Positions 25,384-29,822 of a stretch of DNA of 64,000 bases are shown in pieces. The DNA is from an uncultured Gammaproteobacteria bacterium (GTDB lineage: Bacteria; Pseudomonadota; Gammaproteobacteria; JBGSLN01). The stretch's first letter is position 1. Every line of letters begins with the position of its first letter. The notes under the pieces are model-generated. The model saw only the letters and a program-made list of their open reading frames with translations. It did not search any database and had not been told where the DNA came from. A program made the position numbers and the translations under genes. The stretch covers positions 1,766,238 through 1,830,237 of the forward strand of contig OY968770.1 of NCBI GenBank assembly GCA_963695245.1, given 5' to 3'.

Positions 25384-26355
25384 TTAAGTCTTAACAGTTT
25401 TTCTAATGATATTTTTTTGAAATCTAGGAATTTTTGAGTAAAGCAAAATATTTTTTCCCAATAAGAATTTTTGAGGTAATAACTGGCTGATTTTAGTTTT
25501 TGGCACATTATTTGCATTTATTGAGAATTCAAATATTAAGTTGTATTTATATCCGAAATAAGTATTAATGACATTTTTTATTTTATTAGCAAATGATTCA
25601 TCGCAACTATAAAATAAATATTCGGAGTAACTCAATATTGGAAAAACTAAAGAAAGGCTTTTAGAACATATGACTGTTTCAGTGCCTAGAAAAGCTAACT
25701 CTCCTAATGTATTATAGAAAAAATTCTTCAGTGCGGTTCTTTGTTCTAACGAAATAATATGTTTTTGTGCTTGATGTAAATCAACTTTTATTGGTATCTC
25801 AAAGAAGTCTTTTAAAATAGCTTCAATCCCAGGTTTTGTTCTCATTGGCTGAACTAACACAGGAAAATAATAATTTAAATTAAAGCGAGAGTCATGTGGT
25901 TTTATATTGCTAATTGCGCAAAGCATATTTATGATGTTTAAATCATTTTTTTCTTGAGTTAAACTTAAGTTCATCAAAAAATTATAGCCTAAATCAAAAT
26001 TTAAAAATGATTTAATAAAAAATTTCACAACACGATCAATAAACATGTCAAGAAAATATTTTAAAGAAAGTTCTTTTTTTTGAATTAATTTAATCATGAT
26101 GTCAGTGTAATAATCAGGCATTACTGCATGTTGACTTGAGAAGCCAAATATATTTTGTTTAATTAAAATTGTATGCTTGTCTAAAGTTAGTGCAGATACT
26201 TCTTGATGTTTAAAATTAGTTGTTGCATTTGATAGAAACCTGAATTTATATTCAGGAAAATCAATCGATAATTTTTCTACCAGTTTTAAAAAATCATATT
26301 TATCAGCTTTTTTCAGTAACCAAACAAGTTTTTTATGTTTTTCATTTACTTCCAT
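25384..26355 (-). CDS. tssG: T6SS baseplate protein TssG
   Basis: N-terminal YDFLKLVEKL resembles the TssG F-x-F-F-Q-A-V-R-L-L motif. 323 aa. Overlaps tssF by 10 nt. Confidence 0.75.
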   Translation of the reverse strand: MEVNEKHKKLVWLLKKADKYDFLKLVEKLSIDFPEYKFRFLSNATTNFKHQEVSALTLDKHTILIKQNIFGFSSQHAVMPDYYTDIMIKLIQKKELSLKYFLDMFIDRVVKFFIKSFLNFDLGYNFLMNLSLTQEKNDLNIINMLCAISNIKPHDSRFNLNYYFPVLVQPMRTKPGIEAILKDFFEIPIKVDLHQAQKHIISLEQRTALKNFFYNTLGELAFLGTETVICSKSLSLVFPILSYSEYLFYSCDESFANKIKNVINTYFGYKYNLIFEFSINANNVPKTKISQLLPQKFLLGKNILLYSKIPRFQKNIIRKTVKT

Positions 26356-28133
26356 AATATGATTTCTTCTTCTAAATTTGATATTACACGCAACTCAATA
26401 GAAATATGAATGTTACTGTTAAATTTTAAAAACTCATAAATTACCTTGCTGAGCAGAATTTCACTATTATTAATAAAAATATCTCTGTTGATCTTGAGCG
26501 TATACTCTAATATGTTTGCAAACATTGTTTGCATTTTGTTGTAATGTCGTTTAACAGTATTTTTTGATGTTAACGAGACTAAACCATAATCAATAATACT
26601 TATAATACTACTGTTACCCTGACAGTAGAGTTTTAAAATATCTTTCAAATCATTAAGGTGATTTTCATCTGTTTGAAATCCCAAATATGCAGAACGCAAA
26701 TGTTGCAAAAGCATTATTTTATTTTCATAAGTTAACAGATTATTTTTACCAGGTATCATTTGTGTGATATTCTGAATGTTATTTAAATTTACACTGCTTA
26801 GATCAACAAATTCGAATTCAATAGTTTTATGTCGGATTAACTCATAACAGGATGAATGATTTGTACAAATCAGGCTGGGTACCAGTAAATAATCAGAGTA
26901 ATGGTGTGCAGGTAAGTTTTTCTCAAAAAAGCGAACTTTCACATCAGTAGTTTTTATTGATTGTTTTTGTATATTAGAACATGTTCGTTTAATTTCATAA
27001 TAAATTTTAGGGGAGTTCTCTAAAGAAGTTGATTGTTTAAAGAGAGGTAAAATTTCAACATCTGATTTATCTTCAGAGCTTTTGATATTTTTTATATCTT
27101 TGATATCATATATTTCATTTTTTAGATGAGCATTGAAATCAGATACTTTAATGGAACATTCAAATTTTTTTTCATCATAATGAATAGCTTCACCTTGAGC
27201 CTCAAACAGATTTATAGCGGGTACACAATTAATCGATACGCTTTTCTTACTCAATATATCAGCTATTTTTTGATAGTGATGTCTTAAAATAAAAGTTATC
27301 TGAAACACTTCTTGCTTTAGGTTTATTAGCTCATTTGGTTGAATGTCAACTTCAAAATATAAAAATTTTTGCTGATAAGCAAAATACTCTGTTAATATCC
27401 GGTACGCCTTATTAGCATTAGCTGGGTAGGGCAGTGCATTTTCTTCCTCAGAAAACCCCATAAAGCTTACTGCAGTTTTTTTTATTTCAGTCTTTGACGT
27501 TTCGTCATCTTCTGCATGTATTATGATACCATCTAAATCTTGATGTAAAATATCATAAAATTGCCAATGGTAGGGCGGTTCAATATTGATAAAAAATCTG
27601 ATTTTATTAACTTTTATATTTGGGTATTCAGTAAATTTTTTTAATTTTATTATGAAGGGATAACCATAACTGCTTTTGCTGACATGTAATAACCTTTTAT
27701 CCCAAGTTATACTTTGTATATTATAAGGTATAAGTTCAAGAGGATAAACAGTTTTAAAATATGCTTCGATATTATCTTTGCTGGTTTTTAATAAGCTTCC
27801 AGCAGGTACCACTGCTGATGAAAAAGTCACGGGATCAGGGAATATTTTTAGATTTACATAAGCTGGTATGGGCAAATTGTAGTGAGGATAGAGTGAGTTA
27901 ATAATAGAGTCTGTTAAGGCTTCATCACTGACATCTAAATTTGCTTGAAGTTTTCCAGTTAAAAACGCGAAACTCTCAATGATTCTTGCAACATGTGGAT
28001 CAGCTATATCTTCTAAGTCTAATCCAAGGTTATGGGAAACACCTGGATATGCCTTGGCAAATAATCGGGCATCTTGTTTTAGTATACGTAATTGTTCATT
28101 ATAATAATCTAACAAAACTTTATTCATGAACAA
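26346..28133 (-). CDS. tssF: T6SS baseplate protein TssF (ImpG/VasA)
   Basis: N-terminal LDYYNEQLRILKQDARLFAKAYPGV...DPHVARIIESFAFLTGKL matches the conserved TssF N-terminus. 595 aa. Confidence 0.85.
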   Translation of the reverse strand: MFMNKVLLDYYNEQLRILKQDARLFAKAYPGVSHNLGLDLEDIADPHVARIIESFAFLTGKLQANLDVSDEALTDSIINSLYPHYNLPIPAYVNLKIFPDPVTFSSAVVPAGSLLKTSKDNIEAYFKTVYPLELIPYNIQSITWDKRLLHVSKSSYGYPFIIKLKKFTEYPNIKVNKIRFFINIEPPYHWQFYDILHQDLDGIIIHAEDDETSKTEIKKTAVSFMGFSEEENALPYPANANKAYRILTEYFAYQQKFLYFEVDIQPNELINLKQEVFQITFILRHHYQKIADILSKKSVSINCVPAINLFEAQGEAIHYDEKKFECSIKVSDFNAHLKNEIYDIKDIKNIKSSEDKSDVEILPLFKQSTSLENSPKIYYEIKRTCSNIQKQSIKTTDVKVRFFEKNLPAHHYSDYLLVPSLICTNHSSCYELIRHKTIEFEFVDLSSVNLNNIQNITQMIPGKNNLLTYENKIMLLQHLRSAYLGFQTDENHLNDLKDILKLYCQGNSSIISIIDYGLVSLTSKNTVKRHYNKMQTMFANILEYTLKINRDIFINNSEILLSKVIYEFLKFNSNIHISIELRVISNLEEEIILWK

Positions 28134-28587
28134 TGCTCTCGGAAAACGTACAGATTTTTTTTTGAAGGTCTAATTCGGTCTGTATATTGAAGTCATATTC
28201 ATTGTTAGATAAAACATTTAATGTAGCTAAAATTAATATTTTAAATACTGTTGGAGATGCTTGTTGGTTATGATTATTCATATGAAAGATATCAATTAAA
28301 TTCAAACGGGGTTCAAATATTCCAATGATTTCTTTTATTTCCTCGATTATGTATGATTTTTTGTAATCATCAGATTTCATCTTAGTGGCAAGATCAAACT
28401 CACCATGAGATAAGCCACTTTTTAACAGATGTTGAGAGTTATTATTATTGTGATTATTTTTTGATCTGCCATTTAATAAAGCAGATAAATTAATAATAAT
28501 ATCTTTTTTAATTTGGCTTAATATTGGTAGATTATTGTTTTTTTCATTAAAATGTTCAATAAATGCCGGTCTGAGGTAATTATACAT
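28120..28587 (-). CDS. tssE: T6SS baseplate protein TssE (gp25-like)
   Basis: 155 aa with the FEPRL motif typical of the GPW/gp25 family. Lies upstream of and overlapping tssF. Confidence 0.7.
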   Translation of the reverse strand: MYNYLRPAFIEHFNEKNNNLPILSQIKKDIIINLSALLNGRSKNNHNNNNSQHLLKSGLSHGEFDLATKMKSDDYKKSYIIEEIKEIIGIFEPRLNLIDIFHMNNHNQQASPTVFKILILATLNVLSNNEYDFNIQTELDLQKKICTFSESIVHE

Positions 28588-28598
28588 AGCACATCCTG

Positions 28599-29822
28599 TT
28601 ATTTTTTAAAATTCAGTTGTAAATTGATTTGCTCAAAGTTGTGGCGTTGCTTTAATAAAATATCACAATGTAATTTTGAAGGATTATTTTTAATTTCAAA
28701 AATTTTAATCTGTCCGTATTTCAATGGATACTTAGCTTTTGCACTGTCTGAAATATCATCTCTATCTGCGCAATACTGTGTTAACCATTTTTGTAAATAC
28801 TGCTCGCAGTCTTGTGTACTCAGATACTTTCCGATATTTGATCGCATCATTATTTTTATATAGTGTAATAAACGACAAGCACATAATAATTCATCTAGTG
28901 TAGATTGTGATTGCGCCTGATTTTTTTCTGATATATATAAAGTAGGGAATTCGTATATTTTTATTTGTTCAATATCAGAAAAATATCTCAGACAAATAAA
29001 ACCAAGCTTTATTAAATTTTTTTCCTGAAAATTAGTGAAAGACTTTTCTAAAAGTTGTTTACTGCAGACATTATGTTTATCTGCATAAAAACTATAACCA
29101 GGTTGCTTTATATTTAAATGACCAAGCTCTTTAAACCAACCTGTTAAAATAAAGCACTGTGAACAGATATAAGCAACAATATAACCAGCATTTCCAAAGC
29201 AAAAATGATTTGCAGTTTTGTTTTTCTTCATAATCAAAAAGTCAGGTAATACTAATGCTAGAAATCTTGCCTCAGATTTTTGTCGTATTTGATTAAAGTA
29301 TTTGTATTTCGACTTTAAAAATATTAAATGAAATTTTTCGTCAGGATTTACTTTTTCAAAATTTTTAGCATCAAATAAGGCAGGGGATGCAGCAGCTACA
29401 AAAGGGCTAAATGCTAATGCTGCAATTTGCATCATTTGAGAAAGACAGTAGCAGTCCTCATGTGTATAACTAAACTCATAATTTCCCAAAAGTAAACCAA
29501 AAGGCTCTCCTCCAGGCATATCGTAATTTTGGCTATAAATTTTTTCAAATAACTGACTGTACTCTATATCATTTGCATGAATTAAATCTTTTTTAAAAGC
29601 AGGTTTTGAGATATCTAGTATTTTAACTTTGACAGGTGCTTTAATATTGCCAGATTGAATCAAAAATTTAAGTGCACGCCAGTTTGATTCTAATGTTTGG
29701 AAACAACTATCTTGTATGAGGCTATTTACTTTTTCTTTGATAAATATATCAATGGCTGCAATTAAGAAATATGCTTTATTAGTGACTTTCACAGACTTTA
29801 CCTTTTGTTTCCTTTTTACCAT
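28599..29822 (-). CDS. Divergent TssC-like sheath paralog (407 aa). Lacks the TssC N-terminal ~50 aa and the central GGGK-containing segment.
   Basis: Collinear similarity to TssC at 22093-23574 (GGEPFGLLLGNYEF, AALAFSPFVAAASP, C-terminal DCEQYLQKWL vs DCEQWLNQWI). No adjacent tssB. Confidence 0.75.
   Translation of the reverse strand: MVKRKQKVKSVKVTNKAYFLIAAIDIFIKEKVNSLIQDSCFQTLESNWRALKFLIQSGNIKAPVKVKILDISKPAFKKDLIHANDIEYSQLFEKIYSQNYDMPGGEPFGLLLGNYEFSYTHEDCYCLSQMMQIAALAFSPFVAAASPALFDAKNFEKVNPDEKFHLIFLKSKYKYFNQIRQKSEARFLALVLPDFLIMKKNKTANHFCFGNAGYIVAYICSQCFILTGWFKELGHLNIKQPGYSFYADKHNVCSKQLLEKSFTNFQEKNLIKLGFICLRYFSDIEQIKIYEFPTLYISEKNQAQSQSTLDELLCACRLLHYIKIMMRSNIGKYLSTQDCEQYLQKWLTQYCADRDDISDSAKAKYPLKYGQIKIFEIKNNPSKLHCDILLKQRHNFEQINLQLNFKK

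What the first reader, a model, noticed from the sequence alone, without database searches (positions are those of the whole stretch)
25384..29822. Second divergent operon: truncated TssC paralog co-transcribed with tssE-tssF-tssG but without a TssB partner
The 407 aa protein at 28599-29822 is collinear with TssC (GGEPFGLLLGNYEF and AALAFSPF motifs; C-terminal DCEQYLQKWL). It lacks the first ~50 residues (the TssB/ClpV-interacting N-terminus) and the central GAEGGGK segment. It is heavily diverged (low identity outside the shared motifs) from the TssC at 22093-23574. It heads the baseplate operon tssE (FEPRL), tssF and tssG. No tssB homolog precedes it: an IS4 element and a split MITE sit immediately upstream. 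One reading is a tssBC duplication whose tssB copy was lost through the IS/MITE insertion. Another is a specialised sheath or baseplate-associated TssC variant. A sheath paralog of this kind is not a standard T6SS component.
Basis: seen in the sequence. Interest (0 to 1): 0.75.

Follow-up and report, generated by a model that had tools for sequence, protein, structure and literature searches.

The report
Known second TssC paralog (ImpD/TssC40 type)
The 407-aa sheath-like gene is real and intact, but it is a divergent member of an already known, widespread second TssC paralog (ImpD/TssC40) that normally sits just before tssE-tssF-tssG. It is not a duplicate that lost its tssB partner to a transposon.

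Summary
Window 28599-29822(-) encodes a 407-aa TssC homolog: 30% identity to the cluster's TssC (E 2e-66), with Pfam VipB and VipB_2 domains. It is tightly coupled to tssE, tssF and tssG, has no tssB upstream, and has an IS inside a MITE just upstream.

Its nearest relatives are "second copy" TssC genes, called ImpD in KEGG and TssC40/Atu4340 in Agrobacterium. In 64 of 80 retrieved loci these lie in the order tssA-tssB-tssC-[second copy], usually with tssF/tssG downstream. HMM discrimination (+82 bits) and an NJ tree place the window protein in that clade. It groups with other short forms (407-435 aa) that also head their own operons.

The short N-terminus is a family trait. The Agrobacterium-genus copy has it, and 65 of 136 second-copy-type cluster representatives are 450 aa or shorter. 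The IS is a clean insertion with a 9-bp duplication. Without the IS and MITE only about 104 nt separate the gene from tRNA-Arg, so no tssB could have been lost there.

The AlphaFold model is confident (pLDDT 85, TM about 0.8 to TssC structures), which argues against decay.

The function of this paralog class is still undefined. TssC40 is needed for Hcp secretion and is not redundant with TssC41. My inferred mechanism is a baseplate-proximal sheath initiator.

The parts
28599..29822 (-). tssC2: 407-aa ImpD/TssC40-type second TssC paralog, short form
   Evidence: BLASTP 30% identity, E 2e-66 to the cluster TssC. Pfam VipB and VipB_2. TIGR03355 263.4 bits, just under the 271.5 cut-off. Second-copy HMM 316 bits against first-copy HMM 234 bits. 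NJ clade with P0012 and L062:5311-6606, bootstrap 81/100. AlphaFold2 pLDDT 84.9, pTM 0.84. Foldseek TMq 0.76-0.81 to TssC1, VipB and IglB.
29790..29792 (-). Possible alternative GTG start (codon 11), preceded by AAGG 8 nt upstream. It would give a 397-aa product with an N-terminus as short as in P0012 and P0074.
   Evidence: Read from the sequence and the N-terminal alignment of short forms. This is an inference only.
29827..29855 (-). Promoter-like site TTGACG-17-TATTAT between the MITE end and the ATG
   Evidence: 10 of 12 consensus matches. The scan as a whole is not enriched over shuffles (46 found, 42.6 expected), so this is only a candidate.
28120..28587 (-). tssE (gp25-like baseplate subunit), very divergent
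   Evidence: GPW_gp25 E 1.9e-4, below the gathering score. TIGR03357 35.2 bits against a 53.2 cut-off. phmmer detects TssE in L005 with it. Its position matches tssE in L085 and L086.
26346..28133 (-). tssF
   Evidence: PF05947 E 1.3e-101, full length.
25384..26355 (-). tssG
   Evidence: PF06996 E 4.5e-28.
23873..25245 (-). Two ORFs (243 aa at 24514-25245 and 188 aa at 23873-24439) downstream of tssG on the same strand, with no family match. They may be the tail of the operon.
   Evidence: No Pfam or NCBIfam hits.
29866..29932 (.). Left part of a MITE of about 172 bp
   Evidence: Inverted repeats I1 (39 nt, 97%) and I2. The 39-nt arm occurs 9 times in the window against 0 expected.
29933..31273 (-). 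IS element (1341 bp; transposase at 29952-31133) inserted in the MITE. Terminal inverted repeats are CTGAGGGATCGTCAC and CTGAGGTATCGTCAG. The 9-bp target duplication CCCAACAGG lies at 29924-29932 and 31274-31282.
   Evidence: Sequence, direct repeat D5, DDE_Tnp_1 E 1.7e-14, and a 4-member 90% protein cluster.
31283..31387 (.). Right part of the MITE
31449..31525 (-). tRNA-Arg(TCG), at the right edge of the low-GC T6SS island
   Evidence: ARAGORN. GC is 31% in 12058-29865 against 37-38% in the flanks.
21526..23574 (+). Canonical sheath pair: tssB (21526-22071) and tssC (22093-23574), convergent with the tssC2 operon
   Evidence: PF05591 E 1e-51; VipB E 2.9e-122 and VipB_2. TIGR03355 620.9 bits. 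First-copy HMM 726 bits against second-copy HMM 512 bits.
13627..21542 (.). Rest of the cluster: hcp 13627-14130(-), tssJ 14690-15136, tssK 15149-16480, tssL 16482-17258, tssM 17255-20446, tssA 20439-21542 (all +)
   Evidence: Pfam T6SS_HCP and T6SS-SciN. phmmer cross-hits of the window's K, M and A proteins to loci whose precomputed Pfam labels are VasE, IcmF and ImpA_N. tssL is assigned by position only.

Best explanation
The 407-aa ORF is an intact, fast-evolving member of the ImpD/TssC40 class: the 'second TssC' of the Agrobacterium/Rhizobium-type (group 5-like) T6SS lineage. It arose by an ancient duplication of tssC and uses no tssB of its own. Here the usual string tssA-tssB-tssC-tssC2-tssE-tssF-tssG has been split. 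tssC2 stayed with the baseplate genes and became the first gene of its own operon, as in several other short-form loci. The IS and MITE landed later in the short spacer upstream and removed nothing. This much is shown.

Inferred mechanism: TssC2 keeps the whole TssC fold but lacks the N-terminal region that in VipB carries the ClpV-binding helix. I propose that it forms a small, non-recycled first ring. This ring would dock on the gp25-like TssE of the TssE-F-G wedge by beta-strand 'handshake' and nucleate polymerisation of the TssB-TssC sheath. That would make it a sheath initiator, analogous to the sheath paralog Pvc4 of Photorhabdus virulence cassettes.

My confidence is about 0.9 for the identity and about 0.4 for the mechanism.
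For: Identity:
- The nearest database relatives (27-35% identity) carry KEGG-based 'ImpD' labels.
- They lie directly after tssB-tssC and before (impE/tagJ-)tssE-tssF-tssG. 64 second copies were found in the 80 genome loci.
- Profile discrimination: the second-copy HMM gives 316.1 bits and the first-copy HMM 233.7 bits. The window's own TssC gives 512 and 726 bits.
- The NJ tree nests the protein in the second-copy clade.
- BLASTP gives 204 bits to the second copy of an Agrobacterium genome (L053) and 173 bits to its first copy.

Not truncated by the IS:
- The N-terminus is as short in L053's second copy, in P0005, P0012 and P0031, and in P0074, P0075 and P0077.
- 65 of 136 second-copy-type representatives are 450 aa or shorter, down to 376 aa.
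- The IS has terminal inverted repeats and a 9-bp target duplication. Without the IS and MITE, the spacer to tRNA-Arg is about 104 nt.

Intact:
- AlphaFold2 mean pLDDT 84.9, pTM 0.84, with no segment below 50.
- TMq 0.76-0.81 to solved TssC, VipB and IglB.
- Translational coupling to tssE-F-G.

Mechanism:
- When detached from tssBC, the paralog travels with baseplate or membrane-complex genes: the window, L085 and L086 with tssE-F(-G), and L062 and L087 with tssJ-K-L-M.
- ΔtssC40 abolishes Hcp secretion, yet TssB and TssC41 remain stable. TssB and TssC41 depend on each other (PMC3702570).
- The VipB N-terminal helix is the ClpV docking site (PMC4239648).
- Pvc4 is a sheath paralog that forms the first layer and handshakes with the gp25-like Pvc9 (PMC12546770).
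- The second-copy clade evolves about 3 times faster than the first (mean distance 1.0 against 0.36), as expected for a low-copy adaptor.
Against: - No experiment or structure places any ImpD/TssC40 protein at the baseplate. The Pvc4 analogy crosses distant systems.
- The window protein is the longest branch in the tree (mean distance 1.73-1.75). It falls just below the TIGR03355 cut-off and has extra internal deletions: 12 residues against 25-42 in the 196-209 loop, and 23 against 26-33 in 289-313. Some loss of function cannot be excluded.
- Bootstrap for the exact second-copy clade is only 58/100.
- In two short-form loci the gene precedes tssJ-K-L-M rather than tssE-F-G. This fits 'baseplate/membrane complex module' but is not specific to TssE.
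- No ClpV, VgrG or PAAR gene lies in this window, so the activity of the whole system is unverified.
Confidence: 0.55

Rival explanations
1. Recent tssBC duplication whose tssB copy was destroyed by the IS/MITE insertion.
For: No tssB lies upstream, and mobile DNA sits 44 nt from the start codon.
Against: - The paralog is only 30% identical to the cluster's TssC. It groups with second-copy proteins from many phyla rather than with its neighbour.
- That clade never has its own tssB in 64 loci.
- The IS has an intact 9-bp target duplication inside an otherwise complete MITE. The pre-insertion spacer to tRNA-Arg is about 104 nt.
- Other short forms without any IS also head their operons (L085, L086, L087, L062).
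Confidence: 0.03
2. A decaying, non-functional remnant. The T6SS island of a small-genome, host-associated bacterium is eroding, and the 407-aa ORF is an ImpD-type gene on its way to becoming a pseudogene.
For: - It is the longest branch of the family and falls below the TIGR03355 cut-off.
- It has extra internal deletions relative to even its short-form relatives.
- tssE is also very divergent.
- No clpV, vgrG or PAAR lies in the window.
- There is no obvious Shine-Dalgarno sequence before the ATG.
- IS and MITE activity occurs nearby.
Against: - The frame is uninterrupted at 29% GC over 1.2 kb.
- Every column invariant across the 60-sequence family alignment is kept.
- The AlphaFold2 model is confident with a complete TssC fold.
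- The deletions coincide with positions that are also shortened in P0012 and L062.
- Coupling to intact tssE-F-G is tight.
- All 13 other cluster ORFs are full length.
Confidence: 0.12
3. A functional ImpD-type paralog with a role other than sheath initiator. Three options: it co-polymerises with TssB/TssC along the sheath and changes its conformation, it caps the distal end, or it acts as an assembly chaperone or regulator.
For: - The full TssC fold, including the C-terminal gp25-like domain used for inter-subunit contacts, is kept.
- In most loci the gene is adjacent to tssC as well as to tssE.
Against: - TssB and TssC41 stabilise each other, whereas neither needs TssC40 for stability (PMC3702570). 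This argues against an obligatory TssB-TssC40 protomer in bulk.
- When the cluster splits, the gene leaves tssBC and stays with baseplate or membrane-complex genes in 5 of 5 cases.
- Its evolution is much faster than TssC's, which is unexpected for a subunit embedded in the same helical lattice.
Confidence: 0.3

Closest known systems
TssC40 (Atu4340, ImpD) of Agrobacterium tumefaciens C58 and ImpD of Rhizobium leguminosarum (KEGG ImpD orthology; group 5 T6SS)
   Same: - A second TssC homolog with limited similarity to the main TssC, encoded upstream of tssE-tssF-tssG.
- No tssB partner of its own.
- A short N-terminus: about 15 residues before the IAxID motif in the Agrobacterium-genus copy L053:9956-11350.
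- The same clade by HMM and tree.
- TssC40 is required for Hcp secretion and is not redundant with TssC41 (PMC3702570).
   Different: - Only 27% identity.
- The window protein is 407 aa against 464 aa, with three further internal shortenings.
- It is not downstream of tssB-tssC but on the opposite strand, heading its own operon.
- No tagJ/impE lies between it and tssE.
- The cluster has tssJ, which group 5 clusters are reported to lack (PMC5813230).
- The host is an uncultured Legionellales-like gammaproteobacterium, not a rhizobial alphaproteobacterium.
Canonical sheath large subunit TssC/VipB/HsiC/IglB (TIGR03355; PDB 3J9G, 5MXN, 5N8N, 5URW, 3J9O, 9N4V)
   Same: - Both Pfam domains.
- Collinear over residues 20-403.
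- The predicted fold superposes with TMq 0.76-0.81.
   Different: - Lacks the N-terminal residues (about 40-45) that precede the IAxID motif in TssC. That region of VipB carries the ClpV-binding helix (PMC4239648).
- No adjacent tssB.
- Below the equivalog cut-off, 263.4 bits against 271.5.
- Belongs to the paralogous clade.
Sheath-initiator paralogs of extracellular contractile injection systems (Pvc4 of Photorhabdus PVC; Afp4 by my recollection)
   Same: A sheath-fold paralog encoded alongside the main sheath gene. Pvc4 forms only the first layer and handshakes with the gp25-like adaptor Pvc9 (PMC12546770). This is the functional model I propose for TssC2 with TssE.
   Different: There is no specific sequence relationship. 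Foldseek hits to PVC and CIS sheath chains reach only TMq 0.41-0.49 at about 10% identity. The analogy is functional, has not been tested for any T6SS, and is not a claim of family membership.

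Membership tests
TssC/VipB sheath large subunit (canonical, TIGR03355 equivalog) | VipB N-terminal domain plus VipB_2 gp25-like C-terminal domain | tested here: met
   PF05943 E 1.2e-62 and PF18945 E 4.7e-26. Foldseek TMq 0.76-0.81 to solved sheaths.
TssC/VipB sheath large subunit (canonical, TIGR03355 equivalog) | Score at or above the curated equivalog cut-off | tested here: not met
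   263.4 bits against a cut-off of 271.5. The cluster's real TssC scores 620.9 bits.
TssC/VipB sheath large subunit (canonical, TIGR03355 equivalog) | Encoded next to and co-transcribed with its TssB/VipA partner | tested here: not met
   No tssB upstream. The spacer holds only a MITE and an IS, then tRNA-Arg. The only tssB in the window is at 21526-22071, next to the other TssC.
TssC/VipB sheath large subunit (canonical, TIGR03355 equivalog) | N-terminal extension of about 60 aa carrying the ClpV-interacting helix | tested here: not met
   20 residues precede the IAxID motif, against a median of 67 in first-copy TssC. See also the alignments.
TssC/VipB sheath large subunit (canonical, TIGR03355 equivalog) | Polymerises 1:1 with TssB into the contractile sheath | not testable with these tools
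   Needs biochemistry or multimer modelling.
ImpD/TssC40-type second TssC paralog | Falls in the clade of second-copy proteins rather than with first-copy TssC | tested here: met
   Second-copy HMM 316.1 bits against first-copy 233.7 bits. The NJ tree nests it among 64 second copies. Bootstrap is 81/100 for the clade with P0012 and L062, and 58/100 for the exact whole clade. BLASTP gives 204 bits to L053's second copy and 173 bits to its first copy.
ImpD/TssC40-type second TssC paralog | Coexists with a canonical tssB-tssC pair in the same T6SS cluster | tested here: met
   tssB at 21526-22071 and tssC at 22093-23574, about 5 kb away.
ImpD/TssC40-type second TssC paralog | Lies immediately upstream of (tagJ-)tssE-tssF-tssG | tested here: met
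   An 11-nt gap to tssE, then overlapping tssF and tssG. The same order is seen in L002, L004, L005 and others.
ImpD/TssC40-type second TssC paralog | Lies immediately downstream of tssB-tssC in one operon | tested here: not met
   It is on the opposite strand, convergent with tssABC. The same detachment occurs in L062, L085, L086 and L087. I therefore treat this as a subgroup arrangement rather than an exclusion.
ImpD/TssC40-type second TssC paralog | Required for Hcp secretion and not redundant with TssC | not testable with these tools
   Shown only for A. tumefaciens (PMC3702570).
Group 5 T6SS cluster as described for Rhizobium and Agrobacterium | Cluster lacks tssJ; tagJ and tagF-pppA/ppkA are present | tested here: not met
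   tssJ is present (PF12790 E 5.4e-29). No tagJ/ImpE lies between tssC2 and tssE (11-nt gap). No tagF/pppA/ppkA homolog turned up among the cluster ORFs that were scanned. Criteria come from PMC5813230. The window's system is related to group 5 but is not a typical member.

The most novel reading that the evidence does not exclude
ImpD/TssC40-type proteins may be the T6SS counterpart of the eCIS sheath initiator: a non-recycled, ClpV-blind first ring that docks on TssE and nucleates the TssB-TssC sheath. The window protein is a minimal 407-aa version of this class. That would add a dedicated structural component to a T6SS lineage spread across Alpha- and Gammaproteobacteria, Planctomycetota, Acidobacteriota and others. 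The minimal short forms that segregate with baseplate genes would define its essential core.
Probability: 0.35. Interest if true: 0.6.

Novelty: new member of a known kind. Interest (0 to 1): 0.3.

Why it matters
The locus itself is ordinary: a divergent copy of a paralog that is already catalogued and partly studied.

Its value is comparative. Reviews still call the role of the second tssC 'unclear' (PMC5813230). This window and four other loci show that when the cluster breaks apart, the paralog stays with baseplate or membrane-complex genes, not with tssB-tssC. It also tolerates loss of the N-terminal extension and of several loops.

This gives a concrete, testable hypothesis (sheath initiator) and a minimal construct for structural work. 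It also warns annotators that 'TssC without TssB' in such clusters is not a pseudogene signal.

Tried and rejected
- The listing of cluster members gave no names or accessions for six window proteins.
- Taxonomy therefore rests on DnaX relatives only, at 52-60% identity. The named ones are Legionellales, Legionellaceae or Gammaproteobacteria MAGs.
- No close relative of TssC2 (above 37% identity) exists in the searched protein collections. Neither dN/dS nor an IS-free orthologous locus could be examined.
- A search for a direct repeat of the tRNA-Arg 3' end, as an island att site, found nothing.
- Pfam and NCBIfam gave nothing for the two ORFs downstream of tssG, the 144-aa ORF before tssJ, or the 420-aa ORF at 12054-13316.
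- Literature searches for later work on TssC40/Atu4340/ImpD, or for 'TssC2'-type paralogs in this sense, found only the 2013 study, passing mentions and the 2018 review. 'TssC2' elsewhere means the TssC of a second, separate T6SS.
- The promoter scan is not enriched over shuffles, so the promoter is only a candidate.
- I considered a hidden TssB-like partner among neighbouring small ORFs. None has a VipA signature.

Full report
**Observation**

The window carries a low-GC T6SS island: 31% GC in 12058-29865 against 37-38% in the flanks.

On the plus strand it holds tssJ, tssK, tssL, tssM, tssA, tssB (21526-22071) and tssC (22093-23574). hcp lies on the minus strand at 13627-14130.

Convergent with these, on the minus strand, is a tightly packed string:
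- a 407-aa ORF at 28599-29822;
- tssE at 28120-28587, after an 11-nt gap;
- tssF at 26346-28133, overlapping tssE by 14 nt;
- tssG at 25384-26355, overlapping tssF by 10 nt.

The 407-aa protein is 30% identical to the cluster's TssC over residues 21-403 (E 2e-66). It has both TssC Pfam domains. It begins where TssC residue 63 aligns, and it lacks the IRGAEGGGK stretch and part of the preceding loop. Every factual element of the finding is therefore correct.

**What the gene is**

Its closest database relatives, at only 27-35% identity, mostly carry the KEGG-derived label ImpD. Their genomic context is constant: tssA-tssB-tssC-[this protein]-(impE/tagJ)-tssE-tssF-tssG.

A scan of species-representative genomes returned 80 loci. 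I detected 64 such second copies directly behind tssB-tssC, usually with tssF/tssG downstream. They come from Alpha- and Gammaproteobacteria, Planctomycetota, Acidobacteriota, Gemmatimonadota and others.

I built HMMs from the 59 paired first copies and the 64 second copies:
- The window's TssC scores 726 bits on the first-copy model and 512 on the second-copy model.
- The 407-aa protein scores 234 on the first-copy model and 316 on the second-copy model.

An NJ tree nests the 407-aa protein inside the second-copy clade and puts the window's TssC with the first copies. Bootstrap is 81/100 for its grouping with two other short proteins, P0012 (416 aa) and L062:5311-6606 (431 aa). Bootstrap is 58/100 for the exact second-copy clade.

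Against an Agrobacterium-genus locus (L053), BLASTP scores 204 bits to the second copy and 173 bits to the first.

That second copy corresponds, by genus and gene order, to Atu4340/ImpD. Lin et al. named this protein TssC40. They showed it is needed for Hcp secretion and is not redundant with TssC41. TssB and TssC41 stabilise each other but do not need TssC40 (PMC3702570). Boyer et al. already listed impC and impD together under COG3517 (PMC2660368). Bernal et al. note the consecutive tssC genes of the group 5 cluster and call their meaning unclear (PMC5813230).

**'Truncation' is a family trait**

The number of residues before the IAxID motif differs by clade:
- First copies: median 67.
- Second copies: a range of 8 to 120.
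- The window protein: 20.
- P0012 and L062: 11 each.
- The Agrobacterium-genus copy: about 15.

An exhaustive profile search of 1.84 billion cluster representatives found 6604 TssC-superfamily proteins. Of the 151 top-ranked sequences I rescored (146 new representatives plus five short-form proteins already in hand), 136 score as second-copy type. Of those, 65 are 450 aa or shorter, down to 376 aa.

The window protein has extra shortenings: the 196-209 loop has 12 residues against 25-42, and 289-313 has 23 against 26-33. These lie at positions that P0012 and L062 also shorten.

**The operon-head position is also recurrent**

- P0012 is followed by tssE-tssF and preceded by AT-rich non-coding DNA.
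- P0077 (435 aa) heads tssE-tssF-tssG-clpV after about 290 nt of non-coding DNA.
- P0075 (430 aa) and L062's copy head tssJ-tssK-tssL-tssM-vgrG. In L062 this operon is divergent from tssA-tssB-tssC.

So in all five detached cases the paralog stays with baseplate or membrane-complex genes.

**IS and MITE**

The IS spans 29933-31273. Its terminal inverted repeats are CTGAGGGATCGTCAC and CTGAGGTATCGTCAG. It has a 9-bp target duplication, CCCAACAGG. It sits inside a MITE of about 172 bp whose 39-nt arm occurs nine times in the window.

Removing both elements leaves about 104 nt between tRNA-Arg (31449-31525) and the start codon. A tssB cannot have been lost there.

A 10/12 sigma-70-like match (29855-29827) lies between the MITE and the ATG. 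A GTG with an AAGG motif at codon 11 is a possible alternative start. Both are only candidates.

**Integrity**

AlphaFold2 with a 60-sequence family alignment gives mean pLDDT 84.9 and pTM 0.84, with no segment below 50. Foldseek matches P. aeruginosa TssC1, A. vinelandii, V. cholerae VipB, M. xanthus TssC and Francisella IglB at TMq 0.76-0.81.

By sequence, the protein covers positions 9-423 of the 432-residue VipB chain modelled in the contracted sheath (3J9G). What it lacks is the N-terminal region, which in VipB carries the ClpV-binding helix (PMC4239648).

The protein is nevertheless the longest branch of its family and sits just under the TIGR03355 cut-off. Partial loss of function cannot be excluded.

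**Mechanism (inferred)**

Four lines of evidence bear on the mechanism:
- the complete sheath fold without the ClpV handle;
- genetic linkage to tssE-F-G or tssJ-K-L-M rather than to tssBC;
- evolution about three times faster than TssC;
- the Agrobacterium phenotype.

From these I propose a low-copy, baseplate-proximal sheath initiator. It would handshake with the gp25-like TssE and seed TssB-TssC polymerisation. The precedent is Pvc4, a sheath paralog that forms only the first layer and handshakes with the gp25-like Pvc9 (PMC12546770).

The rivals are co-polymerisation, a cap or a chaperone role (0.3), decay (0.12), and the IS-mediated loss of tssB (0.03).

**Host**

DnaX is at most 60% identical to anything in the database. 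Its named relatives, at 52-55% identity, are Legionellales, Legionellaceae or Gammaproteobacteria MAGs. The source contig is 2.17 Mb. Ankyrin-repeat and orphan large ORFs flank the island.

**Verdict**

The gene is a new, divergent member of a known paralog class. The IS-loss story is refuted. Interest is modest (0.3). It comes mainly from the comparative hint about the still-unknown role of ImpD/TssC40.

Noticed in passing
window 13466-13504, 29894-29932, 31318-31356, 36015-36053, 42020-42263 (3 copies), 53050-53146 (2 copies): A MITE family. Its 39-nt terminal arm (AATCAATGTAGGTTGGGCTGACGAAGGAAGCCCAACAGG) occurs 9 times in 64 kb, against 0 expected, often as inverted pairs. One copy is the landing site of the IS.
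   Followed up: partly
window 12058-31525: The whole T6SS cluster is a low-GC block (31% against 37-38%) ending at tRNA-Arg(TCG). This suggests a horizontally acquired island. No repeat of the tRNA 3' end was found at the other edge.
   Followed up: partly
window 1-64000: No clpV, vgrG or PAAR gene is evident in the window. Pfam scans of the three largest non-T6SS ORFs found an ankyrin-repeat protein (42422-44758) and two orphans (124-2625, 60001-62163). A related short-form locus (L086) has clpV right after tssG.
   Followed up: partly
window 23873-24439 and 24514-25245 (minus strand): Two ORFs (188 and 243 aa) lie between the convergent tssC and tssG ends. They have no Pfam or NCBIfam match and could be effector/immunity or accessory genes of the operon.
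   Followed up: partly
window 12054-13316 (minus) and 14248-14682 (plus): An orphan 420-aa ORF flanks hcp. An orphan 144-aa ORF occupies the slot just before tssJ, where L062 and L087 carry the short TssC paralog.
   Followed up: no
window 47631-49214 and the whole window: The host appears to be an uncultured, deep-branching Legionellales-like gammaproteobacterium with a contig of about 2.17 Mb. Its DnaX is at most 60% identical to any database protein. A T6SS of this lineage in such a host may merit its own look.
   Followed up: partly
L062 4716-5084 (minus) and 12464-16339 (plus): The related short-form locus encodes a FYVE zinc-finger protein (a eukaryote-like domain) and a 1291-aa VgrG with MORN repeats. 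This hints that this T6SS subgroup occurs in host-associated bacteria.
   Followed up: no
window 34162-35848 (minus): A umuD-like ORF (128 aa) and a umuC-like ORF (439 aa) form a pair just right of the island. I judged this from the translations only.
   Followed up: no
hits P0327, P0368, P0407, P0413, P0425: Some representatives with a TssC-like domain are 800-2150 aa long, and some have several matched stretches. These may be fusions or gene-call mergers. P0132 and P0162 (671 aa) carry VipA and VipB domains in one protein.
   Followed up: no
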